Positions 21,515-64,000 of a DNA stretch of 64,000 bases are shown in pieces (the first letter of the stretch is position 1; each line of letters begins with the position of its first letter). The translations under genes and the position numbers were made by a program. The notes under the pieces are model-generated. The model was not told the DNA's origin. It worked only from the letters and a program-made list of their open reading frames with translations, and searched no databases. The stretch is from IMG/VR virus record IMGVR_UViG_3300023297_000003; one strand, given 5' to 3'. The DNA is from a virus (taxonomy: Duplodnaviria > Heunggongvirae > Uroviricota > Caudoviricetes).

Positions 21515-21521
21515 CCTTTGT

Positions 21522-32992: not shown

Positions 32993-35617
32993 TCATTTCT
33001 TCACTCTCTTTCCCCGTCCCATTCGGATGTCCACAAGCTCATTTAGTTTGGCTATCAGGAGCTTGGGGAACTGCCCCACCGTGTTCGAGTGGACGTGGTC
33101 GGGGAACAACGTCTTGACATAGACCGCCCCCTTGCCAATACCCACCCCGATGATGTGAATGCCCGCCTCCTTGGCGAGACGAAGTTGCCGCCGGATAACA
33201 TCACGGTGGCCCCAGTTGGGCTGACCATCTGTGACCACAAACAGGAAACGGTGGGCTTCGTTCCGTGCGCTGAGTCCCATCAGGGCGAACTGGATGCCAT
33301 CCGACATTGGGGTGCCTCCGGCAGCTCGGGTGTTGGCAAAGCGCCATCGGATGCTCTGGAACCGCTCATTCCAGCCCTTAAAGACGTCGTAGATGACCCC
33401 CTCCGTCCTGTGGTAGTCACCTGTATCCTTGGCGTCTTGTCGGACATTGGTTCGTCCGTCCCTGAATCCGAGGGCCAGGACCGGACAACCCAGCCCATCG
33501 AGGGGTTCGGTGATCGCCATAAAGATCCGGGTGGCCGTGACCTTTTGATTGGACATTGACCCGGATTCGTCTGCCACAATGGCTGCGGCCATGCTCATGT
33601 CGAGTTGTGTCGTCTTTCGGCAGTACGCCTTGGTGGGACGCTGATGTCCCATCAAAGCCACACGGGAGTCCACCAGGAACCGTCCTGAGAGTTTTCGTCC
33701 CTGGGGGAGGCCATGAGCCGTGCGGGTCTGTTCTTGCGCCTGGATCAAGGTACGTAGCCTGGACCGCAGATAGGCCGATTGAGCTTTGACCGTTTCCAGT
33801 ATCTTGTTCGCTGCTGTCAGGTCAGCGGCTTTCCCCCGTGCCGAGGGCTTCACGATGTTGACCCGATCCGATTCGGGAGCATAGGGCTTCCAGACCTTCT
33901 CACCGGCTTCGGCCTTGTCCTCCTTGGCCTGAACAGCCCCGATGCTCGCCTCCAGGGCACTTCCTGCCTCCAGGAGGCCCTGGTCCTCGTTGGCTTCGGC
34001 GGCGATTTGTTGGGTTAGGTCTGACCAGTCATTTCCTTCTAGTTCCTCTGGCCCCTCTAGGTGCCCACCAGCGCCCGGAGCAGTTACGTCGGCGTCGGTG
34101 CCCCCATCTTTGGGGTCAGCGTTGTGGGTGCCGTCTGTGGGGTCAGCATCACCCTCTCCGCCACCGGCATCTCCGTCCTCCGGGGTTGTACCCTCTTCGG
34201 GCGGCATGTCATCAGAGGGGTCATCCTCCCCCCCACCTTCGGTTGTACCTTTGCCAGGGGTGTCATCGCCCGAGGGGTCACCCTTATCGGTTTCCTTACC
34301 ACCCCCAGCGTTGTCCCCGTCCTTGTCCTTTGTACCAGGGTCGTCTTTCCCCGCTTTGCCCTTGCCAGTGCCCTTATTGGGTTCATCTCCCTCGTCATCT
34401 CCCTCGTCGGCCCCTCCACCGCCAGCCGCTTTATCCTCCTCCTCATCGAATCCCTCGAACCGGGGGGACTCTTTGGGATCGGCTGGATCCAGTGCCTTGG
34501 CTGGGGGCTTGTCCACGGGCTTTTTCTTTTCCACATCCACCAGTTGCTGGTGGCCACAGACGGTGCAAGTCACGATACCCTTTCCGGGTACCTTTCCGCC
34601 ATGCCCGTCCGACTGTGGTCGCACGACCAGCTTACCAGCGGAGGCTCCGCACTGAGGGCACTTGGTTTCGCCGTCCCCGCACTGGCCCTTCTTCGATTGT
34701 TTGTCCTGTTCGTCGTCACCACTCAACTCAGCGAGCTTGGCCAGCACGTCCATCGCAAGGCGCAGGCTTCCCAGCCCGTCTTCCTTTGTGAGACCCCGTG
34801 CTTCCCGAAGGAAGGGAGCGAGCGGTCCCTCCAGGACCAGTTTCACGGCATCGGCACTCGTCAGGCGGTACCCCTCTATGGCATTCCGTTGGATATCCGT
34901 GTTATAACCCAGGCCCACATCCCGGAACGTCCGCTCTACAACGGACAGGGGAGAGGGCTTCCCCCCGTGGCCCCGAAGAGTGTCTTCCCCCTGAGCCTCC
35001 TGCATTATGATGAAGTCCTGGAGGTCACACATTTTGATGTAGATGCCGTCGAACTCCTGGCACCCGCAACGTTCGATGCGGACATCCTCTATCAGGTTTG
35101 ACCACTGAAGGAGGGCCATAACGTAGCGGGACCAGTCCTTGACCTTGGCCCAGCGAGGAAGCACGACCTCTTCGATTTCCTTCGTGGTCAGGTTGCGGGT
35201 GAGGCTGTACAAGGAGTGCAGGGCTTCGTGGTAGGCTCCACCTGTCAGGGCCATCGCTGTCCTTACCGGGAGCACGTCCGGGGTGTTGGCGATAACGATT
35301 TCCCGCTTGTTGTGCTCCACGATTGTGGCGTTGACGGTTGCCACCCAGGTGGCAACATCCCCAGATGTGGGAACGCAACCAGGATTGTCCGCCGCCCAGC
35401 GGCACATCTCTTTGATGATCTTGCGGGATGTCCAACGGTCCAGGTTGAAAAACCGGGATCCACGGGAGGACACACGGGGTGCGTTCCTACCCAGGATGCC
35501 GATGACGGACGCCCGGTACCCGGCTCGGTGTTTTGCCCCGGACAGCGCCGGGATGAGTTCTCTGGTGTCTCCAATCAGCATCTGCATAGGTGCGCCTGGT
35601 TTCGAGATGTTGGACAA
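32993..35617 (-). CDS. vWA-domain protein (CobT-like) with N-terminal metallopeptidase-like motif and acidic linker
   Basis: YHEALH..NLIEDVRIE; Zn finger; D/G-rich linker; DESGSM, GGTPM, TDG. Confidence 0.85.
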   Translation of the reverse strand: MSNISKPGAPMQMLIGDTRELIPALSGAKHRAGYRASVIGILGRNAPRVSSRGSRFFNLDRWTSRKIIKEMCRWAADNPGCVPTSGDVATWVATVNATIVEHNKREIVIANTPDVLPVRTAMALTGGAYHEALHSLYSLTRNLTTKEIEEVVLPRWAKVKDWSRYVMALLQWSNLIEDVRIERCGCQEFDGIYIKMCDLQDFIIMQEAQGEDTLRGHGGKPSPLSVVERTFRDVGLGYNTDIQRNAIEGYRLTSADAVKLVLEGPLAPFLREARGLTKEDGLGSLRLAMDVLAKLAELSGDDEQDKQSKKGQCGDGETKCPQCGASAGKLVVRPQSDGHGGKVPGKGIVTCTVCGHQQLVDVEKKKPVDKPPAKALDPADPKESPRFEGFDEEEDKAAGGGGADEGDDEGDEPNKGTGKGKAGKDDPGTKDKDGDNAGGGKETDKGDPSGDDTPGKGTTEGGGEDDPSDDMPPEEGTTPEDGDAGGGEGDADPTDGTHNADPKDGGTDADVTAPGAGGHLEGPEELEGNDWSDLTQQIAAEANEDQGLLEAGSALEASIGAVQAKEDKAEAGEKVWKPYAPESDRVNIVKPSARGKAADLTAANKILETVKAQSAYLRSRLRTLIQAQEQTRTAHGLPQGRKLSGRFLVDSRVALMGHQRPTKAYCRKTTQLDMSMAAAIVADESGSMSNQKVTATRIFMAITEPLDGLGCPVLALGFRDGRTNVRQDAKDTGDYHRTEGVIYDVFKGWNERFQSIRWRFANTRAAGGTPMSDGIQFALMGLSARNEAHRFLFVVTDGQPNWGHRDVIRRQLRLAKEAGIHIIGVGIGKGAVYVKTLFPDHVHSNTVGQFPKLLIAKLNELVDIRMGRGKRVKK

Positions 35618-37159: not shown

Positions 37160-38380
37160 ATGGCGAGCAAAAAGATCACTTGTCGGGAATGTGGCCACGA
37201 GGAGTTGGATTACCTCGGGGACCATCTGGTGGAAAAGCACCGGCTCTCGGTGTCTGACTACCTTGCCAAGTACCCCGGTGCCGAAACGATGTCGGAACGG
37301 CTCTGGAAGAAATATCAGGCATCCATAAGGAACATGAAGCGGACAGCGCCCCCTGCGCCGGACAGTCTGACGATACCATTGGCGGGGGCAAATTTCACTG
37401 TTAACCATGACGTTCCCGACTCCGTGTGCCTTCCGATGCCCGCCAACTACATCCTTCCTGAACACGGGGAATTGGGTGCGGATGTGTCACACGCCTTGAT
37501 CAGTCTGTTGAAGGGTCGCAGCATGTACATCTGGGGGCTGCCCGGATCTGGTAAAGACGCCCTGTTCCACGCTTGGTCTGCCTTGACCCGCACGCCCGCC
37601 CTCATTCGACAGGTGAAACCAGGGACTGACATCGAAGCTTGGTTTTTCAGTCGGGGGTTTAACGAAAAGGGCACCTACTGGGAGGAGGGCAACGTTCTCA
37701 AAGCGCTCCGTGACGGATACACGACCAGCACAGGGCGAGTTATCCCCTATCTGATCCTCGTTACGGACTTCGACCGTGCCGACCGAGAACAGGCCGAACA
37801 CCTTCGGCTCATCACCGACTCCATCCAGGGACGAGTGGACGGCCCGGCGGGAATAACCTACCGGGTGATGCCCGGAACCCGCATCGTCGCCACAGCTAAC
37901 ACATCAGGCGGGGGAGACGAACGGGGACGTATGGTGAGTGCCAACCCCCTGGATGCCTCCCTGCTAGATCGTTTTGAACACAAGTACCAGTTCCACTGGC
38001 TGGACTGGACGGATGAGGAAAAAATCATCAGGGCCAAATTCCCCCGCCTGCTCCAACGTGCCCCCAGCGTCATCATTAAGATGAAGGATGTGACAAGGAA
38101 GCTGCGAGAAGCAATCCTGAACGGTGATCTGCACGCCGAGTTTTCTCATCGTGGCCTGTGCAGTATCCTTAGCCATGCTGAAGACATCATGGATGTCTCA
38201 CAACGGGTAGACAAACGCCTGCTCAAATGGGCCGCACGGTGCTGGGTGGATGGACTGCCGGATGATGAAAACCGGAAGGCGGCGAAAAACATAATGGATC
38301 CTAAGCTCGGGATGTTGGACGAAGGGGACACATCGCACGTCAAGAGCGGGGATCTTGCTGGAACGCTGGGGTTTGACTGA
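37160..38380 (+). CDS. MoxR/CobS-type AAA+ ATPase with N-terminal Zn finger
   Basis: GLPGSGKD, variant Walker B LVTDFD, ATANT, LDASLLDRF. Confidence 0.88.
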   Translation: MASKKITCRECGHEELDYLGDHLVEKHRLSVSDYLAKYPGAETMSERLWKKYQASIRNMKRTAPPAPDSLTIPLAGANFTVNHDVPDSVCLPMPANYILPEHGELGADVSHALISLLKGRSMYIWGLPGSGKDALFHAWSALTRTPALIRQVKPGTDIEAWFFSRGFNEKGTYWEEGNVLKALRDGYTTSTGRVIPYLILVTDFDRADREQAEHLRLITDSIQGRVDGPAGITYRVMPGTRIVATANTSGGGDERGRMVSANPLDASLLDRFEHKYQFHWLDWTDEEKIIRAKFPRLLQRAPSVIIKMKDVTRKLREAILNGDLHAEFSHRGLCSILSHAEDIMDVSQRVDKRLLKWAARCWVDGLPDDENRKAAKNIMDPKLGMLDEGDTSHVKSGDLAGTLGFD

Positions 38381-45415: not shown

Positions 45416-45489
45416 CGACCCTGGTCCGATTCGAACGGACGACCTACTACTTAGGAGGCAGTTGCTCTATCCAACTGAGCTACAGGGCC
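45416..45489 (-). tRNA. tRNA-Arg(CCT)
   Basis: Cloverleaf. Confidence 0.95.
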
Positions 45490-45513
45490 GTGGTAGGCGA
45501 GGCCGGGAATTAG

Positions 45514-45586
45514 TAGAGGATGGGGGATTTGAACCCCCGACCATCGCCTTGTAGGAGCGACGCTCTCCCAACTGAGCTAATCCTCT
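45514..45586 (-). tRNA. tRNA-Val(TAC)
   Basis: Cloverleaf (C33). Confidence 0.92.
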
Positions 45587-46289
45587 ATATATCATCCCGT
45601 TCTGGAACCCCTAGAATATAGTCCTGCTGTCCGAGAAAGAAAACAAACAGGTACACCCCATTCTTGATTGACCTTAGAGTACAGGTTCCGTAAGGAGTCC
45701 GATGCTCTGTAACATGTTTTGAGGAAACAGGCGATATTCTTGATGTCCAAATGTTTGAGGAAGAAACCCCAACAGAACCCCAGAAACCAATGGCCTCTGT
45801 GTCTGATCTCAAACTCGCTGCTGGAATCATCACAAAAAGCTTGAAAGCGTCACTTGGCTGTCCTGCCCGCACCCCCCACTCTAGTAAAAGTCGTATATAA
45901 GCTCGATTTGAATTCGCAAAACTCCAGGAGGGTCTTCTTGATGCTGACCTTTTGGTCCCATCCCCCATATACAGACCAACACAAAGAGCGTCTGTTTTTG
46001 TGGGGTTGGAGTGGTACCCCCTTTTGTACCACTCCAATCGCTTCCTTCGTAGATGCTGAAGGCGACGATTATTGAGAAGTTTCAGATCGGCATCTGAAAC
46101 TGTCTGTAAAAGTTTTAAACGATCACTTCCCTGCGCCCCGATAGGAACGTCACGACACCACAACGAAGCTGTGCTTTTCGAAATGTCTAGCTGTTCTGCG
46201 ATTTCTCTAAGAGAAAATCCATCATACCTAAGCTTGAACGCTGCTTTACGAATGTCCGAACAATATTGAACACCCCTTCGACCCACCAT
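45585..46289 (-). CDS. HTH plus LAGLIDADG-like homing endonuclease
   Basis: FSLREIAEQLDISKSTASLW; GLYMGDG; FANS; AT-rich. Confidence 0.75.
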   Translation of the reverse strand: MVGRRGVQYCSDIRKAAFKLRYDGFSLREIAEQLDISKSTASLWCRDVPIGAQGSDRLKLLQTVSDADLKLLNNRRLQHLRRKRLEWYKRGYHSNPTKTDALCVGLYMGDGTKRSASRRPSWSFANSNRAYIRLLLEWGVRAGQPSDAFKLFVMIPAASLRSDTEAIGFWGSVGVSSSNIWTSRISPVSSKHVTEHRTPYGTCTLRSIKNGVYLFVFFLGQQDYILGVPERDDI

Positions 46290-49316: not shown

Positions 49317-49629
49317 TAATGCCGGGTGGCACTGTTTTGGAAGAAGCGGGCTCTCGTTTCCCTTGTCCGTAGCTGTTCCCGCAGTTCCATCAGGTTTAGG
49401 CCCAGTTCTGTCCATTGTCCCTCAGGCACATTACCGCAAAAGGGTAAAGAGGAGAGACCCGATTTGATTTCCATAACGTGGATGGTTACCCATTCCTGTG
49501 TTGTACTGTCTTCGAACCCAATCCAGTGAGGGGCTCCGCATCCTTTGATAGAAGTTCATGGCCTGTTCTTTTGCGCTCCAGGAAATCCTGAAAGAAAAGG
49601 AAACAGCTTTTGAATTGCTTTTCTTTCAT
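49317..49629 (-). pseudogene. Frameshifted PD-(D/E)xK (Holliday resolvase-like) gene
   Basis: MKEKAIQKLFPFLSGFP* and, in another frame, PHWIGFED..IHVMEIKSG. Confidence 0.35.
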
Positions 49630-49644
49630 GTAAAAACCCTCCGG

Positions 49645-49717
49645 TGGGCGGTACTGGACTTGAACCAGTGACCTTCGGCTTGTGATACCGACGTTCTACC
49701 AACTGAGCTAACCGCCC
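49645..49717 (-). tRNA. tRNA-Val(CAC)
   Basis: Cloverleaf. Confidence 0.93.
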
Positions 49718-49903
49718 TCAAATTTCATCCTCTGTCGGTTCCCTGAAGCTGTCTGCGTCAAAGCCCCAGTGAACCTTACCGTCCTTCGTGGCTACCGCAA
49801 CGTGCCCAGGCATGTTCTCGATCCCCCCGAGGAGCAACACTGCCTCGTTCTCTTCCCACGGGTAGTCTAGAACCGCTGAACCTATCGCTATCACTATACG
49901 CAT
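49718..49903 (-). CDS. Hypothetical protein
   Basis: AAGGAG RBS. Confidence 0.55.
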   Translation of the reverse strand: MRIVIAIGSAVLDYPWEENEAVLLLGGIENMPGHVAVATKDGKVHWGFDADSFREPTEDEI

Positions 49904-54517: not shown

Positions 54518-54580
54518 CTCGTCCTCCCAACCGTCGTAAACCCGCAACAGAGTATACTACTCCGTTCGCCTGACAATGGG

Positions 54581-54653
54581 TGGAGCTGAGGGGAATCGAA
54601 CCCCTGACTTTTGCCTTGCGAAGGCAACGCTCTCCCAACTGAGCTACAGCCCC
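54581..54653 (-). tRNA. tRNA-Ala(CGC)
   Basis: Cloverleaf, G3:U70. Confidence 0.95.
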
Positions 54654-54725
54654 TGAACATCGGCCAATAAGGTTTGATGAGGTGCCTGACGATTTCCTCA
54701 GGAGTCCTGACCAAACCCAATCTAG

Positions 54726-55617: not shown

Positions 55618-56193
55618 CTAGGTCAACCTGACAACCCCCGTTGCCGTCAACTGGAGGCTGCGCTTCTCACCCGTCTCCAGGAACAACTGGATGACCATCG
55701 CCATCTGTGCCCCGACCATCCCGATGAAGGGCAGGGCGTCGCCGTTCTCACAGGTGGCCTGTCCCGGCTCCCCCTCAGCATCGGGAACGAAGTACTCGTC
55801 CCACATGATTCGTCCGAACAGCCCCTCGGCGGAGAGGCCACCGTGGAGGCACGGGATGCCGTGCTCTCGGACGTACCCCTGGATGACCAGACGGGCCTCG
55901 ATGTTGTCCGTACAGTCTATGACGAGTTCGGCGTCCCGCATCACTTCCCGGACGTTGTCCGTGGTGAGCTTGTGCGGAATGATCTCCAGGCTCCGCCCCC
56001 ACATCCCTTGCATCGCCTGTTGAAGGGCCTGCACCTTGTTCCGGCCAGACCCCATCCGGGTGTGGAACTGTGCCTGGGTATTTTTCATCTCCACCCGGTC
56101 GAAGTCCACCACTCGGATCGTGTGTTCCCAGTTACGCCCGAACAGGATGATGTGGCTTCCCAGCGCTCCTGCTCCTACAATGACGATGGTCAT
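55618..56193 (-). CDS. ThiF/E1-like adenylyltransferase
   Basis: IVGAGALG, DFDRVE..N..Q, K, DCTDN..R, candidate Cys in ATCE. Confidence 0.9.
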   Translation of the reverse strand: MTIVIVGAGALGSHIILFGRNWEHTIRVVDFDRVEMKNTQAQFHTRMGSGRNKVQALQQAMQGMWGRSLEIIPHKLTTDNVREVMRDAELVIDCTDNIEARLVIQGYVREHGIPCLHGGLSAEGLFGRIMWDEYFVPDAEGEPGQATCENGDALPFIGMVGAQMAMVIQLFLETGEKRSLQLTATGVVRLT

Positions 56194-56399
56194 GGTACCC
56201 TCAACCAGCATCCGGCCTCGGATCCCCCGTATCCCGGCAGCCATTTCTGCACCTTGCCACACACCGAACACCTTCGAGTGATTTCCGGCGAGCCAGGGGG
56301 CGGGAAGATGTCCGTGATATGCGGGGGTTGGGACCGCACCCACTTGTGGCAATGTAACCCACTCAGCTCTGCCACTATTTTTTTCCACAACATGGGCAT
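56190..56399 (-). CDS. Small Zn-binding protein
   Basis: LHCHKW..CSVCG. Confidence 0.55.
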   Translation of the reverse strand: MPMLWKKIVAELSGLHCHKWVRSQPPHITDIFPPPGSPEITRRCSVCGKVQKWLPGYGGSEAGCWLRVP

Positions 56400-56605
56400 T
56401 TACCTCCGTTCTTTTCGATCCACACGTCCAACAGGAACATCATCGTTTCACCAATGTCCCCGTCGCCACCCATCTTGATGTCAACAGGAAGGCCAGCCTC
56501 GCCGTCGATTTTGGACATGGCCCTCACCACCGCTTCCGAGAAGGGGTGATGAGGGACGCCGTCTTCCCACCGCTGATCTAGCCTCGCCCCCGTGTCCCCG
56601 GCCAT
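56375..56605 (-). CDS. Hypothetical protein
   Basis: Coupled ORF. Confidence 0.55.
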   Translation of the reverse strand: MAGDTGARLDQRWEDGVPHHPFSEAVVRAMSKIDGEAGLPVDIKMGGDGDIGETMMFLLDVWIEKNGGKCPCCGKK

Positions 56606-56854
56606 CTAGGCTCCGAGCGGGGCCTTGGGACGCACGATGATCTTGTTGTCCGGGATCTCGTCGTTGGCCGGAAAGCGGTTCACCACGAAATCCTTGAGGT
56701 CGATGTCAGGGTCGGCATTGATGCCGGGCACCGATCCGTCCCTCACGGCCTCCTCGACCCAGCCCCGGATTTCCTGATCCGTGGCATCGTAAAGAACCGG
56801 GTCCGGGAGGTCACCGTTCTGACCGTCCCACGTAATGTTCACTCGTGCATTCAT
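56606..56854 (-). CDS. Ubiquitin-like protein (putative)
   Basis: 82 aa beta-grasp-like pattern ending VRPKAPLG-A; between JAB and E1; AGGAGG RBS. Confidence 0.7.
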   Translation of the reverse strand: MNARVNITWDGQNGDLPDPVLYDATDQEIRGWVEEAVRDGSVPGINADPDIDLKDFVVNRFPANDEIPDNKIIVRPKAPLGA

Positions 56855-56904
56855 CTGATCCTCCTGTTTGTCCACGAGGTTGATCCTCGGGCTGTACCAC
56901 TATA

Positions 56905-56931
56905 CTACTCGGGGGCACTCTAGGATGATCC
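56905..56931 (-). promoter_or_regulatory. Phage promoter GATCAT-N14-GAGTAG
   Basis: Exact motif. Confidence 0.7.
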
Positions 56932-57309
56932 TGAGAGTCTCAGCAACTCCTCGATCTCAAGCTCATGTTCGATTCGGGGCGGGATCTTTTGGGGGCGCAC
57001 CACTACGTATTCGTCCGTCACCACGTGCCGCATGAAGTACTTGACCTCGGTGAGGGTGATAATCGGCCAAAGGAGTCTTTGACCAAGGCCCTTCTCCAAG
57101 GCGGTGAAGGTGGTTGTGTCCGTATGGGACGGCCACGCTTCTCCCCTCCACGGGTGCGTATGCGCCAGCCCCCCGAGATTCTTCCGGTTGTCCCAGAGGA
57201 ATTGCCAGAGGTCGAAGGAGTCCGGGATGCTTCCCCCTGTGCGTCCAGGCGGGAGATGCCAAAGGAGCGTCTTTCCGTCCTTGTCAAAAACTAATGCAAC
57301 TTCGATCAT
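56920..57309 (-). CDS. JAB/JAMM metallopeptidase
   Basis: N-terminal Glu, HTHP-x6-PSHTD (HxH..SxxD). Confidence 0.88.
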   Translation of the reverse strand: MIEVALVFDKDGKTLLWHLPPGRTGGSIPDSFDLWQFLWDNRKNLGGLAHTHPWRGEAWPSHTDTTTFTALEKGLGQRLLWPIITLTEVKYFMRHVVTDEYVVVRPQKIPPRIEHELEIEELLRLSGSS

Positions 57310-57318
57310 TGTAGTCTC

Positions 57319-58362
57319 CTACCAGTCATCGTCCTCGTCGTCATAACGGTCAGGATCTTGGCCCCCAGGCAGATGCGCCTGGGGAATGGCACCCCGCTGA
57401 TTGTTTACATCTCCCGGAGCGTGTCTGTAAACTACCAGCCGCCCCTGGAGCATCGCGTCATTAATAATCGCTGGGAGCGATTCTAGCGTGAAATAGTTGT
57501 CCCCCTTCTCACCGTGGTGGTCGTTCAAGCAAACACCCGAGTCAACGATTCGCAGGGTTCGCTTCTCCACAACACATTCCAGCCGCCTGTGCAGGTAACG
57601 ATACTGGACAACCATCCAGGCCCCGTTGTTGTGAGGGCGGGCATCCAGTAGGGTTGCGCCCGAAACACCCAGTGCGGCCCTGCAGGCGGCGCTGAAGTCC
57701 ACTGCTGCCAGTGCCCTGCGTCCGGCACCCGTACTGGCATCCTTCATGGCCTGTCGGAGCTTCTCCTCCGCAATGGTCTTCTTCTCCTCCTCAGCCCTCC
57801 GTGCAGCCGCTTCAGCCTCCCGGCGTTCGGCTTCGACACGCTGGAAGGAGAGCCACCGGAAAGCGAGATCCAAGGCGGGTGTCACTCCGGCCACATGCGC
57901 CACGGAGTCTAATCGATCCTGGTAGGCCACTTCGACCTCCATCTCAGGACCGACAGGGAACTCCTGTCGTATGTAAACGTGGGCGTTCCCCGTCTCAGTG
58001 GAGAGGGGGATCACGACCGCCCTGGCAAACCTGTCCAGCCCCTGTTCCACGAGGAGTACGGAGATGGTCTGATCGATCATTTTATCGGGATCCGGGTCCA
58101 CCCGAACACCGTCAGGAATCAGTCGTTCCCCAGCGAGGTAGCCTCGGATGACCTTGTGTCCTTGCTCGAACTCGAAGTCAGGGTCAGCTGCCTTGATGAG
58201 CCGGGCAGTTCGACCCCCGGAGATCTCGAAGGTGTACCATCCAAACTCCTCGGGGAGCCGACCGGCGATACGCCAGATCTGGTCCTTGTACGCCAATCGG
58301 CGTTCCCCGAGCCAGGGGAGTACCCGCTTCTCGTTCTCTGAAAGTAAGTCCTGCCACCCCAT
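57319..58362 (-). CDS. Conserved protein of the Ubl cluster, putative E2-like
   Basis: C-terminal beta-rich domain with IVDSGVCL Cys; assigned from context only. Confidence 0.55.
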   Translation of the reverse strand: MGWQDLLSENEKRVLPWLGERRLAYKDQIWRIAGRLPEEFGWYTFEISGGRTARLIKAADPDFEFEQGHKVIRGYLAGERLIPDGVRVDPDPDKMIDQTISVLLVEQGLDRFARAVVIPLSTETGNAHVYIRQEFPVGPEMEVEVAYQDRLDSVAHVAGVTPALDLAFRWLSFQRVEAERREAEAAARRAEEEKKTIAEEKLRQAMKDASTGAGRRALAAVDFSAACRAALGVSGATLLDARPHNNGAWMVVQYRYLHRRLECVVEKRTLRIVDSGVCLNDHHGEKGDNYFTLESLPAIINDAMLQGRLVVYRHAPGDVNNQRGAIPQAHLPGGQDPDRYDDEDDDW

Positions 58363-58383
58363 GGGGAACCTCCCATGGGTCAT

Positions 58384-58410
58384 CTACTCTAAACTGTCAG
58401 TGGATGATCC
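58384..58410 (-). promoter_or_regulatory. Phage promoter GATCAT-N14-GAGTAG
   Basis: Exact motif. Confidence 0.7.
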
Positions 58411-58486
58411 CCTAGTATGTCACAGGGGATCCTCTGAGGGCTTTCCTGACAAGAGTCCTTGTGGGAGTTAACGACCTTGGCCTTAG

Positions 58487-59038
58487 CTAGGGCTTCCGAG
58501 GTGCACTCTCTGCAACTGCCCATCCCAGGAGCTTCCTAACTTCTGTCGCTTTGCTCTCCTCCTTCCTCACAGTGGTGTACGCTTTGTTCCATTCCTTGCG
58601 CGAAAGTTCCCTTGCTTCTGGGTGCTTTTGTCGGTCGAGTTTACCGAGGATCTTCCCGGCCTTAGTTTCAGCGTCCTTGGCTTCCTCAAAGATCTTCACC
58701 AACTGACCATGGTCATGTTTGTTTATGAGACTATGCACGATCCTCCTAGACACAGGGAGATGCGCCCTAAAACTCGCCATGGAAGGCACTTTTTCGAAAA
58801 GCTTTTTAAGGGTAGGGTTTTTGTTGTACAGTCCTGCGACGTCTCCTTTACCCGGAAACCTTTTGGGCTTCTCTTCAGGAACCTTACCACCCCCGCCACC
58901 AGAAGGACTCTTAACTGTATGCCTGTGCCTGTCTGCCTTGGGGTGTTCCTGGAGATACTTCTTCAGAGCCTCCTCAGAAGGAAACTCCGTAGCCAACATC
59001 TCCCTATACTCAGCAGCAGTCATCAGTTTCATCCCCAA
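58487..59038 (-). CDS. Basic protein with FPxExxxxxYLxxHPxAD module
   Basis: Module shared with 7882-11412. Confidence 0.7.
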   Translation of the reverse strand: MGMKLMTAAEYREMLATEFPSEEALKKYLQEHPKADRHRHTVKSPSGGGGGKVPEEKPKRFPGKGDVAGLYNKNPTLKKLFEKVPSMASFRAHLPVSRRIVHSLINKHDHGQLVKIFEEAKDAETKAGKILGKLDRQKHPEARELSRKEWNKAYTTVRKEESKATEVRKLLGWAVAESAPRKP

Positions 59039-59089
59039 GTCCCTCCCAGGTGTTTGTCATCAGGGAGGGATTATAACAAGAAAACCGAA

Positions 59090-61024
59090 CTAGGCCCAGA
59101 AGGGCTTCTGGAGCAATGAGGTCTCAAGAATTTCCTGGAGCAGGGACTTCCGATGCTTCACCGGGGCATCCTGCTTCGTCGTCCCCACCGGCGTGGTGGA
59201 GATCAAGTTCCGCAGGGTCCGGGTCACGGCGTAGGGGTCATCCGTGTTGAACAGCGCTTCCTCGATCTGGAAGCAGGGGATCCCCATCCTGGTGGCCGTG
59301 TCCTGAACGTAGGTACCGTTATGGCCCATCATGCCCTTCACCTTCAGAAGGCCTATGGCCACCGGACGGACACCATGCCGGTCGCAAACGTTGATGACCC
59401 GGTCGCTGGGGTACTCACCCTCGTCACCCACGAAGAGGAACAGTGCGTCCTCCTCCGGGCCGGGCTTGTGGCTCTTCAGCAGCACATCCACCCCAGTGGC
59501 GTGGCACGTCCCACCCGCTGCCTGATGCCCCCGGAACGCCTGTTCCACTGCCCCGGCAGAAGCCGCCTTGATGGTGATCTCCATACCGATGGTGTTGAAC
59601 ACCGAAACGTGCAGGCGATCCAGCGGGAAGCCCCCGAGGAACTTCTTAAGGTAGCCCTTCGCCGCCTGGATGGCACCCTGCATGGAACCGGACTTGTCCA
59701 CAATGACGTAGACCCGCAGGCCCCTGGTGACTTCCTCCATCGCCTTCTTCGTGGCCGTGTCCGCTGCACCCTGGAGTTTCTCCACGGTCTCGGTCTTCCG
59801 CACACGGCGAGCGATGTTGGTGGCACGCTGGTTGTCCGCAGCCGCCAGGGCCTTATCGTGCTTGGCCTGGATGTCGGGCAGCTTCAGGAGTTCCATGTCC
59901 TCCAGCGTCGGCGTCAGGATGATCAGGTCGGCATTGGACATGCAACCGTTCAGGACAGCCGCCGCAACAATGGCACGGGTGAGACCCCCGAGGTATCCTT
60001 TGGGATACGGTTTGTCAGTATCCTTCGGAAGCGGGGGCGGAAGCTTTCCAACGATCAGCTTCCAGTTGGGCTTGTCCTTGGCGATGCGGTTGCAGATCTG
60101 CCGTTCGGACAAACCCTCCCAGGTGTCAGCCTTCTTGACCTTCGCACCAATGGCAATGGTCCGACGACCGTCCTTGGCCTGTTCCTGCTTCCACCGCAGG
60201 ATCTCGAAGAACTGCGGGGACGTCGGCTTGTACCCGACCCGCTGGGCGAGCCGGATCACGGAAGTACGGAAACCCGCACGGACGAGACCATTCAGGAGCT
60301 TGATGTTCTCCTCACGGTACCGAAGCCACTTTGTCACGAGCTTCAGGTAGCGCCCGTAGAACGGCTTCCGAGCGGAGTGGCCGAAGCCGAGATCCCTGTT
60401 GATCTGTGCTACCCCCGGCACAGCCAGCACGTCACCGAGCCGGAGCAGGAGCTTGGGGTTGAAATCGTGCTTGCCCCGGATCAGGCACATGGCCTCCCCG
60501 ACCGCACGGTAGTCATCATCCAAGAGATCCGGCTCACCCGCTACGGGTTCCCCGAAACGGTTCTGGCAGAGCATGAACGCCGCCAGGATGACCTTCATGT
60601 CCCGGTGGTCACGGGGGAAGGCCCAGGACGCCCAGTGAGCGGCAAACTCGTTGTCCGCCTTCCACACCTCTGCGACCTGCTGGTACATCCAGGTGACTAC
60701 CTCCGGGAACAGACCCGGCTTGCGGTACTCACCAAGGATCTTCCGTCCGCTGACGATCTTGCCGTCGTCCCGAAGGATGCCGATTTTGGTCTTGACGGAT
60801 TTACGAGCCACCTTCGTCAGGCGGTAGACGACCTTCTCCTGTTTGCCCTTGTCACCCTCTAGCTTCCAGGAGATCGGCTCCCACTTGACGCCGACCTTGG
60901 AGGTCGTGTCCGGGGAAACCATCCCCGGCCTCCCATGATAAAGGTGATCGAGATGAGTGGTCAGGGACTGAATCGCTCGTTCAGCCGGGCCAAGACCCTC
61001 AATCCGTGCTTCTTGCTCATTCAT
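59090..61024 (-). CDS. Ro60/TROVE-like helical domain plus vWA protein
   Basis: ~430 aa basic helical N-terminus; C-terminal vWA VIVDKSGSM, GGT, VGDE; adjacent Y-like RNAs. vWA is certain, TROVE is inferred. Confidence 0.7.
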   Translation of the reverse strand: MNEQEARIEGLGPAERAIQSLTTHLDHLYHGRPGMVSPDTTSKVGVKWEPISWKLEGDKGKQEKVVYRLTKVARKSVKTKIGILRDDGKIVSGRKILGEYRKPGLFPEVVTWMYQQVAEVWKADNEFAAHWASWAFPRDHRDMKVILAAFMLCQNRFGEPVAGEPDLLDDDYRAVGEAMCLIRGKHDFNPKLLLRLGDVLAVPGVAQINRDLGFGHSARKPFYGRYLKLVTKWLRYREENIKLLNGLVRAGFRTSVIRLAQRVGYKPTSPQFFEILRWKQEQAKDGRRTIAIGAKVKKADTWEGLSERQICNRIAKDKPNWKLIVGKLPPPLPKDTDKPYPKGYLGGLTRAIVAAAVLNGCMSNADLIILTPTLEDMELLKLPDIQAKHDKALAAADNQRATNIARRVRKTETVEKLQGAADTATKKAMEEVTRGLRVYVIVDKSGSMQGAIQAAKGYLKKFLGGFPLDRLHVSVFNTIGMEITIKAASAGAVEQAFRGHQAAGGTCHATGVDVLLKSHKPGPEEDALFLFVGDEGEYPSDRVINVCDRHGVRPVAIGLLKVKGMMGHNGTYVQDTATRMGIPCFQIEEALFNTDDPYAVTRTLRNLISTTPVGTTKQDAPVKHRKSLLQEILETSLLQKPFWA

Positions 61025-61661
61025 GGTGTCTCCTGCTTTGTCTGTTTGTCCGAAGGCGATGACAGATGGCACACACCACATCGCACTTGGCTATCTCATC
61101 TAATAGTAATTGCTTGGACCCACAAAAGACCATGCTGGAAATTTTGGCCACCTTGGTTTTCGGGTCTCTGTGATCAAAGTCCATGGCACAGGCAGGAAAG
61201 GAACAACCACAGTCCTGACAGGGTTGATTTTTAGCCTGGGCTGCGATCTTTTGGAGTTTGGTTCTCTGACGACGGTTGTTCTTCAGGTAAGGAACCCGAT
61301 CCTTTCGGTATTGTCGTAAACGGTGTTCCCTTTGGCAGTCCCGACAACGAGAAAGGCGACGCAACAGCGACTCGTTTTTGAAAGCAAAGGTGCTAATCGG
61401 AAGCTCTCTCTGACAATCAGGACAAACCCTGGTGCTCGGTTCCACAATTAATCCAGCGGTCACGGCTTGCCTGCGAGCGTCCAGCAGACGTTGTTGCTCC
61501 CGTCTGTACTGGGCTTTATCCTGACGAGCATACCGCTGCGCCCGGTACATCCTGTCACACTCCTGACACTTGGAGATCCTGTATCCCTTTGCTTTTACCT
61601 TGACTCGGAATTCATCAAGGGGGAAGGCACCCCCACAACCTGTACAAATTTTTATGCCCAT
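61017..61661 (-). CDS. HNH homing endonuclease
   Basis: Two CxxC..CxxC fingers; CQDCG..MDFDHRD..KCDVVCAICHRLR. Confidence 0.88.
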   Translation of the reverse strand: MGIKICTGCGGAFPLDEFRVKVKAKGYRISKCQECDRMYRAQRYARQDKAQYRREQQRLLDARRQAVTAGLIVEPSTRVCPDCQRELPISTFAFKNESLLRRLSRCRDCQREHRLRQYRKDRVPYLKNNRRQRTKLQKIAAQAKNQPCQDCGCSFPACAMDFDHRDPKTKVAKISSMVFCGSKQLLLDEIAKCDVVCAICHRLRTNRQSRRHHE

Positions 61662-61779
61662 CAACTGCCTCCGACTACCCGGCACACAATAGACATTACA
61701 GGTTGTGTTCCATGTGATCAAACGAACACCTCTAATTCGAGAGCTGATGCAAAACATCTGCTCCCCCGTTCACATTGGT

Positions 61780-61806
61780 CTACTCGGCAGTCTCTCCTGA
61801 TGATCA
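61780..61806 (-). promoter_or_regulatory. Phage promoter GATCAT-N14-GAGTAG
   Basis: Exact motif. Confidence 0.7.
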
Positions 61807-61817
61807 CAGTGAGACGA

Positions 61818-61843
61818 CAAAAGGGGAGGTTGCCCTCCCCTTT
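61818..61843 (-). terminator. Intrinsic terminator ending the ncRNA array
   Basis: GGGGAGG-GCAA-CCTCCCC-TTTT. Confidence 0.8.
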
Positions 61844-61852
61844 CGGGTGTAA

Positions 61853-61940
61853 CTGAACGTGCGAGGAGCCGAGCGGAACTTGCGATGGTAACAGGGCGGA
61901 CCCCGTTGGTGCTTGTATGCTCGACAGGCTGCACGTCCAA
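61853..61940 (-). ncRNA. Y-RNA-like element E5 (no tRNA core)
   Basis: GGACGTGC-AGCCT-GTCGAGC-ATACAAG...GCTCGGC-TCCTC-GCACGTTC. Confidence 0.75.
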
Positions 61941-61955
61941 ACTGAATATCAAATA

Positions 61956-62106
61956 GAGGACATCCGAGTGAGTGAGCGTGTTACCAGTTCCCCTTCCCGC
62001 CGGGTCGGGGGACTGCGGACTGGAATTGAACCAGTAACTTTCAGATTATGAGTCTGATGCTCGACCAATTGAGCTACCTTGTGTGCTCACTCTGATGGAT
62101 GCCCTC
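61956..62106 (-). ncRNA. Y-RNA-like element E4, tRNA core with CAT anticodon
   Basis: D, anticodon and T arms enclosed by a bulged terminal stem; no acceptor stem. Confidence 0.8.
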
Positions 62107-62165
62107 AAGTGCGAAGCCAGGATTTGAACCTGGCTCAAAGCCGGAGTTACCTCCTCCCATCCGCA
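62107..62165 (-). ncRNA. Mini-tRNA-like spacer S3
   Basis: TGCGGA/TTCGCA stem plus CCAGG-TTCAAAT-CCTGG T arm. Confidence 0.65.
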
Positions 62166-62174
62166 GTTCGTACC

Positions 62175-62316
62175 AAAAGCACCCGAGTAGGCGAACGTTG
62201 TTTACAATCCCTTGCGAGATCGTGGAATCGGATTCGAACCGATCACCTTCAGCTTTGCAGGCTGATGCTCTATCCAGATGAGCTATCCTTGTATGTTCGC
62301 CTGGATGGGTGCCCTT
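62175..62316 (-). ncRNA. Y-RNA-like element E3, tRNA core with GCA anticodon
   Basis: Same architecture and ATACAAGG / ACTC motifs. Confidence 0.8.
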
Positions 62317-62388
62317 GGTGCAGACGTCAGGAGTCGAACCTGAAGACGTGGGCAAACACGTCATCCCGCCTGTGCCGGGATTACTGCA
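62316..62388 (-). ncRNA. Aberrant tRNA-like spacer S2 ending ACCA
   Basis: 6-bp D-like arm, 6-nt anticodon loop, T arm, CCA. Confidence 0.65.
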
Positions 62389-62392
62389 TGAA

Positions 62393-62454
62393 GCGGCAAG
62401 TCAGGAATTGAACCCGAAAAGGTTGCATGCACCTTTTGACCACAACTGTACCGC
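62393..62454 (-). ncRNA. Mini-tRNA-like spacer S1
   Basis: GCGGTA/TGCCGC stem plus T arm TTCAATT. Confidence 0.6.
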
Positions 62455-62459
62455 AAATA

Positions 62460-62591
62460 AAGGACGCACGAGGTGACGTGCTGTGTTTGGTGGAAAGAAA
62501 CGGAATTGAACCGTTAACCTTCGGAATGTAAATCCGATGCTCTACCAATTGAGCTATCATACCTTGTAAGCACGTCTGATTGTGCGCCCTT
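62460..62591 (-). ncRNA. Y-RNA-like element E2, tRNA core with TAC anticodon
   Basis: Same architecture, TTACAAGG / ACCTC motifs. Confidence 0.8.
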
Positions 62592-62593
62592 AG

Positions 62594-62727
62594 TCGGGGA
62601 GCCAGGATTCGAACCTGGGCAGCGTGTATGCTTCCCTTGATGGACCCGTAAAGGTCCGAGGTGAGAAGCGGGGTTGCTTTTGGCTTTCTCTAAATGAAAG
62701 TGCTCTACCAGACTGAGCTACCCCCCG
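62594..62727 (-). ncRNA. tRNA chimera E1 with permuted Y-like stem in the variable arm, anticodon TTA
   Basis: CGGGGGG/CTCCCCG acceptor; GCTTCTC-ACCTC-GGACC..GGGTCC-ATCAA-GGGAAGC-ATACAC insert. Confidence 0.8.
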
Positions 62728-62794
62728 ATACTAAGTAAAACTGACTATCAAAGAACCCGTGAATCCGTCCAGGGCTGTCCCTATCATACCTGTA

Positions 62795-62820
62795 CTACTC
62801 CACCGAACGCAAGATGATCC
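62795..62820 (-). promoter_or_regulatory. Phage promoter (N13 variant) for the ncRNA array; boxA-like GTTCTTTGA follows at ~62747-62755
   Basis: GGATCAT-N13-GAGTAG. Confidence 0.65.
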
Positions 62821-62866: not shown

Positions 62867-64000
62867 TTAACGCTCTGCCGAAACAGAGTGACGTACCCGA
62901 CCAGTTATTGGGTACGATTCGCCCCCAGGAATCTCGCCTGGGTTACCATGCATGCCTGCAATATTACAGGAACCGATGGCAGGGCTGTGAGCCCAACTAT
63001 TCTTCGGCCTCAGGAACTCGTCCCTCAACCACGACCAAGCTCTCGGACGTAAAGTATGCTTTCGGGATCTTCCTTCCAGGTTTACCCGAGAACCCCCACG
63101 ACCTGTTAACTTGTCCGTAAAACGTTGACTCTCCAAATAACCCATACCCCTGCGAGCTATCACTAGCGCAGCAGCAGTGTGAACATTCAAAGAGTACATG
63201 TCCTGATACTTCAGTTTTCCCAGCACCGAAGTAAACGCTGGGTTAACCTCGACAACTTCGACACCCATCTTCACAGCACGAGACTTGATTGCTTCCAGCA
63301 TCTGACGATGAAGGAAATTGGATCTCATACGATTGAACTTCTTGTTCTTCTGTTTACCTGCCCGAAAACGTAGTTCCTCAAGAACAAGAGGCTTCTTTGT
63401 TAAGAAGGCAAACAAAACGACCCGAACCGCAAGTTGCCGAATGTCATAGGTCTGTTTTTCGGATTTGGCGAAACGAATCCTCTGTTCCTTTTCATAGTGA
63501 TGGTGAACAAGCTGTCCCTGAGAGTTCGTTTCAACAATAGCAAGACCGTCAGGGTTGCAGTCGATACCAATGGTTCCCTGACTAACAGGTTTCGTTACGA
63601 TCTGTGGGGTTTCAAATTCTGAGGAAATCTTGACCTCAATCTGACCCTTACGGTAGATAAGTCTCACGTCGTAGCAGTCTGGATTGAACTCAAACTTGTC
63701 AGGCATCCAGAACTTGCCCTCAATCCAACGACCTCGTTCCGAAGGGTCGTTAACGAGGATTCGGTTACCCACTATACGGATGTTAGGATTCCCTCGCTTG
63801 GTTTTGTCTCCTCGGGAATAGAGTTGTGAGTTACGCCTCTGTTGCCATTCCCCCTTGGAGATCTTGCCTTTTTGGAGGTCTCTCCAAGCTGGTTTGCCTC
63901 CGAAAATTACCGAGGGGGTGTTTCTCTTTTGGGCAGCGAGGCCGCAAGCGTCTCCAACATACCGTTGGTTTAGGCCAGCCATGTAGTTTCCCTTGATGGC
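62867..64000 (-). CDS. tnpB: TnpB-related nuclease, paralog of 35644-36927 (5' end outside window)
   Basis: Near-identical motifs; shared 3' end GGCGGTGAAAGGACGCCAG..GAAACCAGG. Confidence 0.9.
   Translation of the reverse strand, partial: AIKGNYMAGLNQRYVGDACGLAAQKRNTPSVIFGGKPAWRDLQKGKISKGEWQQRRNSQLYSRGDKTKRGNPNIRIVGNRILVNDPSERGRWIEGKFWMPDKFEFNPDCYDVRLIYRKGQIEVKISSEFETPQIVTKPVSQGTIGIDCNPDGLAIVETNSQGQLVHHHYEKEQRIRFAKSEKQTYDIRQLAVRVVLFAFLTKKPLVLEELRFRAGKQKNKKFNRMRSNFLHRQMLEAIKSRAVKMGVEVVEVNPAFTSVLGKLKYQDMYSLNVHTAAALVIARRGMGYLESQRFTDKLTGRGGSRVNLEGRSRKHTLRPRAWSWLRDEFLRPKNSWAHSPAIGSCNIAGMHGNPGEIPGGESYPITGRVRHSVSAER

What the first reader, a model, noticed from the sequence alone, without database searches (positions are those of the whole stretch)
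55618..62820. Phage locus joining a Y-RNA-like array, a Ro/TROVE-vWA protein and a ubiquitin-like conjugation module
Seen, all on the minus strand: ncRNA array, HNH, 644-aa helical+vWA protein, one inserted gene, a Cys-containing conserved protein, JAB, an 82-aa protein ending PLG-A, two small ORFs, and a ThiF/E1. Four copies of the same phage promoter drive the block. Known: Ro60/Rsr (TROVE+vWA) binds Y RNAs; JAB trims Ubls to expose Gly and E1 adenylates them. Inference: this is an RNP-guided Ubl-tagging system carried by a phage, possibly marking proteins captured on the tRNA mimics such as anticodon nucleases or synthetases. Bacterial Ubl conjugation is best known as anti-phage defence, so a phage-borne RNA-linked version is notable. 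Similar bacterial gene neighbourhoods may have been noted before; I cannot check this.
Basis: partly seen in the sequence, partly recalled or inferred. Interest (0 to 1): 0.92.

Follow-up and report, generated by a model that had tools for sequence, protein, structure and literature searches.

The report
Phage Ro-like RNA particle with ubiquitin-like module
A huge salt-lake phage carries a fixed set of five genes and small tRNA-shaped RNAs, also found in dozens of other huge phages and in some bacterial chromosomes, that joins a Ro60-like protein to a small ubiquitin-like protein and its enzymes, a link I found in no paper.

Summary
On the minus strand lie an RNA array (61855-62727), an HNH gene, a 644-aa helical+vWA protein, one non-conserved insert, a 347-aa Cys protein, a JAB peptidase, an 82-aa protein ending PLG-A, two small ORFs and a minimal ThiF/E1. 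Four copies of a phage promoter-like motif precede them.

The order vWA, Cys protein, JAB, Ubl, ThiF recurs in 56-61 of 66 phage loci. Parts of it recur in 50-72 of 80 bacterial loci, including cultured myxobacteria.

A new RNA family (a two-helix handle enclosing a tRNA-like core) flanks the module. I found 81 copies in 57 sources, and 29 of 30 pairs covary. In five whole phage genomes it occurs only at the module.

The Ubl reading is well supported: a conserved RPKTPFG end with variable tails, an intact JAMM motif and E1 motifs.

The Ro60/TROVE reading rests on fold and embedding evidence only. Sequence profiles do not reach the N-terminal domain.

Targets and biological role are unknown. 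The "RNP-guided tagging" idea is untested.

This scan has noted the same module before on other DNA. I found no publication. Novelty: new variant of known kinds. Interest: high.

The parts
62594..62727 (-). Complete tRNA-like RNA (intact acceptor, D and T arms, UUA anticodon) with the handle, circularly permuted, in its variable arm
   Evidence: Rfam tRNA 47 bits with a 62-nt insertion. The handle motifs ACCUC, closed helix, AUCAA and AUACACG were read directly.
62456..62596 (-). Handle + tRNA-like unit (anticodon UAC, weak acceptor with U-U mismatches, ACCA after it)
   Evidence: R1 134 bits. Helices GGGCGCAC/GUGCGUCC and GACGUGCU/AGCACGUC.
62171..62321 (-). Handle + tRNA-like unit (anticodon GCA)
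   Evidence: R1 111 bits; scanner hit.
61952..62111 (-). Handle + tRNA-like unit (anticodon CAU) with an extra hairpin after the T arm
   Evidence: R1 108 bits; scanner hit.
61855..61938 (-). Fifth handle (GGACGUGC..GUCGAGC-AUACAAGC...GCUCGGC-UCCUC-GCACGUUC) with a short non-tRNA cargo
   Evidence: Read directly. Repeat D19 shows the shared junction.
61818..61840 (-). Terminator-like hairpin GGGGAGG-GCAA-CCUCCCC-UUUUG ending the RNA array
   Evidence: Read directly. Not listed by the simple scan.
62786..62820 (-). Promoter-like motif GGATCATC-N12-GAGTAG before the RNA array
61772..61806 (-). Promoter-like motif before HNH and the vWA gene
61017..61757 (-). HNH endonuclease, a mobile insertion and not a module member
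   Evidence: phrog_2255 8e-33. Directly upstream of the vWA gene in only a few loci.
59090..61024 (-). 644-aa protein: small beta subdomain (about 34-101), helical domain (about 105-432, Ro60/TROVE-like by fold), C-terminal vWA domain with an intact MIDAS site (D443, S445, S447, T506, D534)
58487..59038 (-). 183-aa inserted gene, not conserved
   Evidence: No homologue in related loci; no family.
58376..58410 (-). Promoter-like motif before the 347-aa gene
57319..58362 (-). 347-aa protein: two OB-like barrels (9-60, 68-140), a long helix (162-233), a C-terminal alpha/beta domain with invariant Cys278 (candidate E2-like carrier) and an acidic tail
56920..57309 (-). JAB/JAMM metallopeptidase (E3, H50-T-H52, S61, D64)
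56897..56931 (-). Promoter-like motif before the Ubl gene, overlapping the JAB 3' end
56606..56854 (-). 82-aa ubiquitin-like candidate ending ...RPKAPLG-A
56190..56605 (-). Two small overlapping ORFs (76 and 69 aa), not conserved
55618..56193 (-). Minimal ThiF/E1-like adenylating enzyme (191 aa counted from M66)
   Evidence: Pfam ThiF 1.4e-23; NCBIfam; family consensus; PADLOC E1 part of E1-E2 models.

Best explanation
This is a self-contained ribonucleoprotein-plus-Ubl module.

Shown:
- Five protein families in a fixed order recur with one RNA family at the module's edges. They recur in huge phages and in bacterial chromosomes.
- The order is: helical+vWA protein, OB/Cys protein, JAB, small protein ending in Gly, minimal ThiF.

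Inferred steps:
1. The small protein is made with a short variable tail. The JAB peptidase trims the tail to expose the conserved ...PFG glycine.
2. The ThiF enzyme adenylates that glycine.
3. The activated Ubl passes to the single invariant cysteine of the 347-aa protein. Its C-terminal domain has an E2-like layout, and its two OB barrels could hold RNA.
4. The Ro60-shaped vWA protein binds the conserved handle of the tRNA-like RNAs. The handle is helix, AAUCA/NNCUC internal loop, helix, then an ACA[AC]GC junction.
5. The particle brings the Ubl machinery to its substrate, or is itself the substrate. The vWA MIDAS site may dock an acidic partner such as the acidic tail of the 347-aa protein.

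In the phage, the module most likely manages tRNA- or RNA-linked processes during infection. The targets are unknown.
For: Synteny:
- vWA, p347, JAB, Ubl and ThiF appear in the same order in 56-61 of 66 viral loci.
- In 80 genome loci, p347 appears in 72, ThiF in 59, JAB in 54 and Ubl in 50. These include cultured Corallococcus, Paraliomyxa and Spirillospora.
- In Paraliomyxa the module is flanked by ordinary chromosomal genes.

RNA:
- 81 hits of 64 bits or more in 57 sources. 48 lie just downstream of ThiF, 31 upstream of the vWA gene, and 2 inside the module.
- In five phage genomes of 440-620 kb, all 8 strong hits lie at the module.
- 95.5% of cells are paired against 66.5% in shuffles. 29 of 30 pairs show compensatory change.
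- The same handle is grafted in permuted form into a tRNA variable arm.

Ubl: conserved RPKTPFG plus 0-14 variable residues.

JAB: JAMM residues are present, and 10 of 10 homologues hit Prok-JAB.

E1: ThiF 1.4e-23, invariant DCxDN and an invariant ATCE cysteine.

Ro-likeness:
- Foldseek's top hits are 9KOP (phiLo Ro60), 9NFA and 1YVR.
- The nearest ESM Atlas clusters are TROVE.
- Full-length hhalign against Ro60 gives 82%, E 1e-5.
- The MIDAS site is invariant.
Against: - The N-terminal domain has no sequence-level link to TROVE: Pfam gives none in 39 members, and N-terminal-only hhalign gives 0.2%.
- Foldseek TM-scores are only 0.26-0.37. VIA-align lists only vWA domains.
- The RNAs lack the Ro-binding GNCGAA/GGUCCGA motif.
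- The Ubl has no family or fold evidence.
- The E1 family has Ser where the NLxRQ arginine usually sits.
- No expression or binding data exist.
- An earlier follow-up of the same module was later marked 'part of it fell', with no details given.
Confidence: 0.55

Rival explanations
1. This is a sulfur-carrier pathway for tRNA or RNA modification. The small protein would be a ThiS/MoaD/TtuB/Urm1-type carrier. JAB trims it, ThiF adenylates it, and it is converted to a thiocarboxylate. The Cys protein would relay sulfur to the tRNA-like RNAs or to phage tRNAs. The vWA protein would act as a scaffold.
For: - E1 + JAB + a small Gly-ended protein with a trimmed tail is also the layout of CysO/Mec+ and QbsE/QbsD, and of the dual-use TtuB/TtuC and SAMP/UbaA systems (established knowledge; PMC2948915 and PMC5349211 were listed but not read).
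- The module sits beside tRNA arrays in most phages.
- Its RNAs carry canonical T arms and 7-nt anticodon loops.
- The best NCBIfam hits of the E1 are ThiF/MoeB.
Against: - The C-terminus is FG, not GG.
- The 190-aa E1 has no rhodanese domain.
- None of the five conserved genes matched a PP-loop or TtuA/Ncs6-type family.
- The bacterial versions have no tRNA arrays.
Confidence: 0.13
2. The vWA protein is not an RNA binder. It would be the receptor or substrate of the Ubl through its MIDAS site, as Rpn10 or other vWA adaptors are. The handle RNAs would be unusual tRNA precursors whose leader-trailer stems serve processing. They would be linked to the module only because both belong to tRNA-rich genome regions.
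For: - The TROVE assignment fails at sequence level.
- VIA-align sees only the vWA domain.
- The RNAs carry 32 different anticodons. Many have an acceptor-like stem, and 31 of 81 have CCA near its end.
- vWA plus complete Ubl cascades are known in the vWA-MoxR FtsH ternary systems (PMC7159879).
Against: - In whole phage genomes the handle RNAs occur only at the module, although tRNA arrays lie elsewhere too (window tRNAs at 18-28 kb have none).
- The RNA travels with the module into bacterial chromosomes that have no tRNA arrays.
- Ro60 structures outrank all plain vWA domains in Foldseek.
Confidence: 0.15
3. There is no joint function. The genes would be neighbours only through shared descent of one conserved block in a phage lineage.
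For: Most evidence is synteny among related huge phages whose vWA proteins are 45-68% identical.
Against: - The order survives many different insertions between the genes.
- The module recurs at 33-40% identity in myxobacterial, verrucomicrobial, planctomycete and actinomycete assemblies, in unrelated surroundings.
- The RNA moves between the two edges of the module, and even inside it, but stays attached.
Confidence: 0.05

Closest known systems
Ro60 (Rsr) with Y RNAs: Salmonella/Mycobacterium YrlA, Deinococcus Yrn1, Thermus phage phiLo Ro60 with Yrl1/Yrl2 (PMC4201824; PMC12135203; PDB 9KOP, 1YVR)
   Same: - A helical domain followed by a vWA domain with a MIDAS site.
- The top fold matches are Ro60 structures.
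- Structured RNAs are encoded next to the protein gene.
- The RNAs have a stem/internal-loop/stem plus a tRNA-like module. As in Yrn1, the stem stands where the acceptor stem would be (PMC4201824).
   Different: - No Pfam TROVE match.
- An extra N-terminal beta subdomain.
- The RNAs lack the GNCGAA/CGAA motif and score 16 bits against 69 for Rfam YrlA.
- An intact anticodon arm with 32 different triplets.
- No rtcB or PNPase link was seen.
- A Ubl cascade is always attached, which is not reported for any Ro60 locus in the papers I could search.
Bacterial Ubl-conjugation operons (E1, E2, JAB, Ubl: Iyer et al. 2006 PMC1779556; CBASS Cap2/Cap3 PMC10097602; Bub-type PMC11601596)
   Same: A ThiF-type E1, a JAB peptidase, a small protein with a C-terminal Gly behind a removable tail, and a partner protein with one invariant Cys.
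   Different: - The E1 is a bare 190-aa adenylation domain.
- The Cys protein matches no Prok-E2 family and carries two OB barrels and a coiled coil.
- The Ubl ends FG and has no family.
- The operon includes an RNA family and a Ro-like protein.
- PADLOC matches only the E1.
E2-less dual-use Ubl systems: archaeal SAMP/UbaA/HvJAMM1 and Thermus TtuB/TtuC (PMC2948915, PMC4443979)
   Same: A minimal E1 + Ubl + JAMM set with a link to tRNA biology.
   Different: Those Ubls end GG and double as sulfur carriers with dedicated thiolases. Here there is an extra invariant-Cys protein, and the module holds no thiolase.
vWA-MoxR 'FtsH ternary' conflict systems with a full Ubl cascade (Kaur et al. 2020, PMC7159879)
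   Same: A vWA protein genetically coupled to JAB, E1 and a Ubl, in multicellular-type bacteria.
   Different: Those have MoxR and FtsH ATPases, a beta-propeller-vWA protein, a RING E3, a Ubl-E2 fusion and caspase-like effectors. None of these is among the five genes here, and no RNA is involved there.

Membership tests
Ro60/TROVE (PF05731 + vWA_Ro60) | TROVE domain recognisable by sequence profile | tested here: not met
   - No TROVE hit in 39 family members at E<=1 or in 10 distant relatives.
- Family profile against PDB sequences finds no Ro60.
- N-terminal-only hhalign against a Ro60 alignment gives 0.2%.
- Full-length hhalign gives 82%, E 1e-5, but much of the score comes from the vWA part.
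Ro60/TROVE (PF05731 + vWA_Ro60) | HEAT-repeat ring followed by a vWA domain (fold) | tested here: inconclusive
   - Foldseek's top hits are 9KOP, 9NFA and 1YVR, at E 1e-6 to 7e-6 over 548-599 columns, but TM is 0.26-0.37.
- ESM Atlas nearest clusters are TROVE/DUF2828 at 0.85.
- VIA-align lists only vWA domains.
Ro60/TROVE (PF05731 + vWA_Ro60) | vWA domain with MIDAS residues | tested here: met
Ro60/TROVE (PF05731 + vWA_Ro60) | Adjacent genes for structured RNAs with a stem-loop-stem and a tRNA-like module | tested here: met
Ro60/TROVE (PF05731 + vWA_Ro60) | Protein binds those RNAs | not testable with these tools
   Needs RIP/CLIP or EMSA.
YrlA Y RNA (Rfam RF02553) | Reaches the family's gathering score; T arm, closed acceptor-like stem, D arm order; GNCGAA motif | tested here: not met
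   The best hit is 16.7 bits against a cut-off of 69, and covers only the T...D stretch between neighbouring units. The order here is D arm, anticodon arm, T arm inside the handle. The conserved motifs are CUC and ACA[AC]GC instead.
Prokaryotic Ubl conjugation system | E1: ThiF-type adenylation domain with nucleotide and Mg motifs | tested here: met
   Pfam ThiF 1.4e-23. GxGxxGS and DCxDN are invariant, and there is an invariant Cys in ATCE. The usual Arg of NLxRQ is Ser.
Prokaryotic Ubl conjugation system | JAB/JAMM peptidase with E...HxH...S..D | tested here: met
   Motif read. 10 of 10 homologues hit Prok-JAB as their only family, E 1e-6 to 2e-3.
Prokaryotic Ubl conjugation system | Ubl: conserved C-terminal Gly, often behind a removable tail | tested here: met
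   RPKTPFG is followed by 0-14 variable residues in about 55 homologues, and several end exactly at the Gly.
Prokaryotic Ubl conjugation system | Ubl: beta-grasp fold | not tested
Pfam and the PDB profile search find nothing.
Prokaryotic Ubl conjugation system | E2: UBC fold with a catalytic Cys | tested here: inconclusive
   - Layout is helix, four strands, Cys loop, helix.
- A single Cys is invariant over deep homologues, in D[AS]G[VI]CL, which recalls the GxICLD of UBC enzymes (the comparison is from my own knowledge).
- No Prok-E2 Pfam hit.
Sulfur-carrier systems (ThiS/MoaD, CysO, TtuB, SAMP) | C-terminal Gly-Gly, and a sulfurtransferase or thiolase partner | tested here: not met
   The end is F-G. 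None of the five conserved genes matched a rhodanese or PP-loop family. Partners elsewhere in the genome were not searched.
vWA-MoxR ternary conflict systems | MoxR AAA+ ATPase paired with the vWA protein | tested here: not met
   No ATPase among the five conserved genes. A separate vWA/AAA_5 pair lies 20 kb away.

The most novel reading that the evidence does not exclude
The handle RNAs are working parts of the Ubl reaction, not bystanders. There are two versions of this reading.

1. The tRNA-like RNA held by the Ro-like ring selects what gets tagged. This would be RNA-scaffolded Ubl conjugation.
2. More radically, the E1-activated glycine is passed to the RNA itself, for example to a CCA-like 3' end freed by processing, as an aminoacyl-tRNA synthetase would do. 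That would create a Ubl-RNA adduct that serves as donor or decoy.

Either version would be the first RNA-coupled ubiquitin-like system in bacteria and their viruses.
Probability: 0.3. Interest if true: 0.92.

Novelty: new variant of a known kind. Interest (0 to 1): 0.8.

Why it matters
Ro60-Y RNA particles and bacterial ubiquitin-like cascades are each active research fields, and no one has connected them in the papers I could search. Here they form one tightly conserved unit. It is carried by dozens of huge phages and by myxobacterial, verrucomicrobial and actinomycete chromosomes.

If the link is functional, it offers three things:
- A tractable prokaryotic model for how an RNA particle can direct or regulate protein tagging.
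- A new family of tRNA mimics with a portable protein-binding handle.
- Three protein families with no annotation so far: the Ubl, the OB/Cys carrier and the Ro-like vWA protein.

The module also occurs in cultured Corallococcus and Paraliomyxa strains, so it can be tested genetically.

Tried and rejected
- Near-identical DNA in GenBank phages: none. By protein, only Virus Rctr197k matched.
- Single-sequence and profile searches of PDB sequences gave nothing beyond vWA for the vWA protein, and nothing for p347 or the Ubl.
- Pfam, NCBIfam and PHROG gave nothing for p347, the Ubl, or the N-terminal domain of the vWA protein.
- A profile of the N-terminal domain against 1.8 billion proteins found only 205 relatives, none with Pfam TROVE.
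- Five related complete phage genomes hold no canonical TROVE gene.
- VIA-align on the 644-aa model (both modes) returned only vWA domains, so it says nothing about the N-terminal fold.
- ESM Atlas gave no usable hit for the p347 C-terminal domain.
- The simple sigma-70 and terminator scan did not recover the phage motif or the array's terminator.
- Sequencing runs: no RNA holder is listed.
No whole genome is held for this window.
- I considered CobT/CobS-type cobaltochelatase subunits for the vWA protein and dropped the idea. There is no CobT family hit, and no ATPase lies next to it.
- I considered lambda-type tail assembly (gpK JAB + gpI Ubl) and dropped it. There is only a weak PHROG tail hit (3e-4), and the module sits among tRNA genes with an E1.

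Full report
**Setting.** The window comes from a huge phage. It holds 32 tRNA genes and a tmRNA. The query protein's own contig is 528 kb. The same DNA is held by many salt-lake metagenome runs. No whole genome is held for it.

**Observation.**
- ThiF matches Pfam at 1.4e-23. Its homologues are about 190 aa and start MKxVTIVGVGALGSH. The real start here is therefore probably M66, giving 55618-56193.
- The JAB gene carries the full JAMM set (E3, HTH, S, D). 10 of 10 homologues hit Prok-JAB as their only family.
- The 183-aa gene and the HNH gene (PHROG 8e-33) are insertions.
- A TnpB-like gene lies just upstream of the array.
- The 'same phage promoter' is a bipartite motif, GGATCATC-N12-GAGTAG. 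It occurs about 15 times in the window, nearly always in front of genes. Four copies lie in this block. Promoter activity is inferred.

**Synteny.** The vWA protein belongs to a large and very conserved family. More than 1500 clusters match, most at 55-68% identity, and one member carries an intein. The 347-aa protein has a parallel family on the same contigs.
- In 65 IMG/VR loci plus Rctr197k, the order vWA, p347, JAB, Ubl, ThiF is kept in 56-61 of 66, despite many different insertions.
- In most of these phages the vWA gene follows a co-oriented tRNA array.
- The module also occurs in 80 loci of the GTDB genome set. Many are Myxococcota MAGs at 50-55% identity. Others are cultured Corallococcus, Paraliomyxa and Spirillospora strains, plus Verrucomicrobiota and Planctomycetota MAGs, at 33-48%.
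- In Paraliomyxa the flanks are a Ser/Thr kinase, a YcaO enzyme, halogenases and a YhgA-type transposase. That is a chromosomal, non-phage setting.

**The RNAs.** The three central units of the array share one design: helix 1, an A-rich loop (AAUCA), helix 2, a junction ACA[AC]G, a tRNA-like D arm, anticodon arm and T arm with a weak acceptor stem, an A/C-rich linker, helix 2', NNCUC, helix 1' and a U-rich tail.
- A fifth handle (61855-61938) holds a short non-tRNA insert.
- The first unit (62594-62727) is a complete tRNA with a UUA anticodon. It carries the same handle, circularly permuted and closed by a loop, in its variable arm. The handle therefore behaves as a portable module.
- A simple two-helix scanner found 28 such elements on the gene strand of related loci and 1 on the other strand.
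- A covariance model built from 15 units finds 81 full-length matches of 64-134 bits in 57 sources. There is a clear gap to ordinary tRNAs, which score 59 bits or less.
- On these 81 sequences, 95.5% of pair cells are standard pairs, against 66.5% in shuffles and 27-45% when partners are slid. 29 of 30 pairs show compensatory changes, and both handle helices covary at every pair.
- 77 of 81 have 7-nt anticodon loops, carrying 32 different triplets. CUC in the 3' loop and ACA[AC]GC at the junction are the conserved single-stranded motifs.
- Position: 48 lie just downstream of ThiF (median about 0.5 kb), 31 upstream of the vWA gene and 2 between vWA and p347.
- In five 92-100% complete phage genomes (2.6 Mb in all), all 8 strong matches lie at the module.
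- The RNA also accompanies the module in bacterial loci without tRNA arrays, for example Paraliomyxa and the Verrucomicrobiota MAGs.
- The design recalls Y RNAs. As in Deinococcus Yrn1, the stem stands at the acceptor position (PMC4201824). But the RNAs are not YrlA: they score 16 bits against a cut-off of 69 and lack the GNCGAA motif.

- Foldseek ranks Ro60 structures first: 9KOP at 1.2e-6, 9NFA at 4e-6 and 1YVR at 7e-6, over 548-599 columns. These rank ahead of every plain vWA domain. 9KOP is the Ro60 of Thermus phage phiLo (PMC12135203).
- The ESM Atlas puts the N-terminal 430 residues nearest to TROVE and DUF2828 clusters, at 0.85.
- A diverse full-length alignment matches a Ro60 alignment collinearly from the mid-TROVE region to the end (82%, E 1e-5).
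- Against this: Pfam finds no TROVE in any of 39 members. The N-terminal domain alone gives 0.2% in hhalign. TM-scores are low. VIA-align shows only the vWA part.
- I put 'divergent Ro60-like ring' at roughly 0.65.

**The 347-aa protein.** The model (pLDDT 85) shows four parts.
- A 70-residue helix.
- A C-terminal helix, four-strand, loop, helix domain.
- Often an acidic tail.

**The Ubl and E1.** About 55 homologues of the small protein share ...RPKTPFG followed by nothing or by up to 14 unrelated residues. That is the pattern of Ubl or sulfur-carrier precursors trimmed by a JAB peptidase.
- The E1 family keeps GxGxxGS, DCxDN and one invariant Cys (ATCE). It has Ser in place of the usual Arg of NLxRQ.
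- PADLOC recognises only the E1.

**Reading.** The best-supported account is a self-contained RNP-plus-Ubl module, as set out under Best explanation. The rivals are a sulfur-carrier route, a vWA receptor with unrelated tRNA precursors, and mere synteny. Each is weighed in its own section.

**Literature.** Searches for Ro60/TROVE together with Ubl, JAB or ThiF terms found no description of this combination.
- Jumbo-phage comparative work mentions TROVE proteins only as RNA-repair partners (PMC7824862).
- Asgard-virus work lists Ro60 and ThiF genes separately.
- vWA plus Ubl cascades are known only in MoxR/FtsH ternary systems (PMC7159879).

**Earlier scan notes.** This scan has noted the same module on other DNA many times: 36 notes in at least 32 genomes. 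Readings were similar. One earlier follow-up was later marked 'part of it fell', without details. My claims therefore rest only on what I tested here.

Noticed in passing
window 62867-63982 (-): TnpB-like RNA-guided nuclease gene (NCBIfam guided_TnpB 1.7e-16) ends about 45 nt upstream of the promoter-like motif of the RNA array. It is absent from all related loci, so it is a recent insertion.
   Followed up: partly
window, about 15 sites, e.g. 16100, 32958, 37071, 44879, 47395, 53414 (-) and 17976, 20667, 23176, 37093 (+): Bipartite motif GGATCATC-N12-GAGTAG(A)-N4-5-GTG in front of genes on both strands. It is probably this phage's own promoter. GATCATC occurs 34 times against 9.5 expected.
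   Followed up: partly
window 32993-35617 (-) and 37160-38380 (+): A second, unrelated vWA protein (874 aa) lies near an AAA_5 (MoxR-like) ATPase. This is a separate vWA-ATPase pair.
   Followed up: no
window 49591-49739, 45489-45619, 54536-54689 (-): Full-length but low-scoring matches to the handle-RNA model (47-56 bits) lie around ordinary tRNA genes. They may be diverged handles or chance flanking pairings.
   Followed up: no
window 62322-62455 and 62112-62170 (-): T-arm-like hairpins (GGTTCAATTCCTGA, GGTTCGACTCCTGA, CCAGGTTCAAATCCTGG) sit between the handle units. Rfam reads T-arm-to-next-D-arm stretches as weak YrlA (15-17 bits).
   Followed up: no
P0109 (homologue of the vWA protein): One family member is 1043 aa and carries intein/homing-endonuclease domains (PF14528, PF14890), so an intein sits inside the Ro-like protein.
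   Followed up: no
L098 (Paraliomyxa miuraensis contig) 2032-21762: The bacterial copy of the module sits between a YcaO cyclodehydratase, FAD/halogenase genes and a ThcOx-like oxidase. A YhgA-type transposase follows the RNA directly.
   Followed up: partly
window 57319-57345 and homologues: Many p347 homologues end in an acidic, aromatic-containing tail (DDEDDDW, DDDDWDD, DEDEDY), while others stop right after VVFRHV. The tail may be a ligand for the MIDAS site.
   Followed up: no
L105 and L106, 11802-11936: In two Verrucomicrobiota assemblies the handle RNA lies inside the module, between the vWA gene and the p347 gene.
   Followed up: partly
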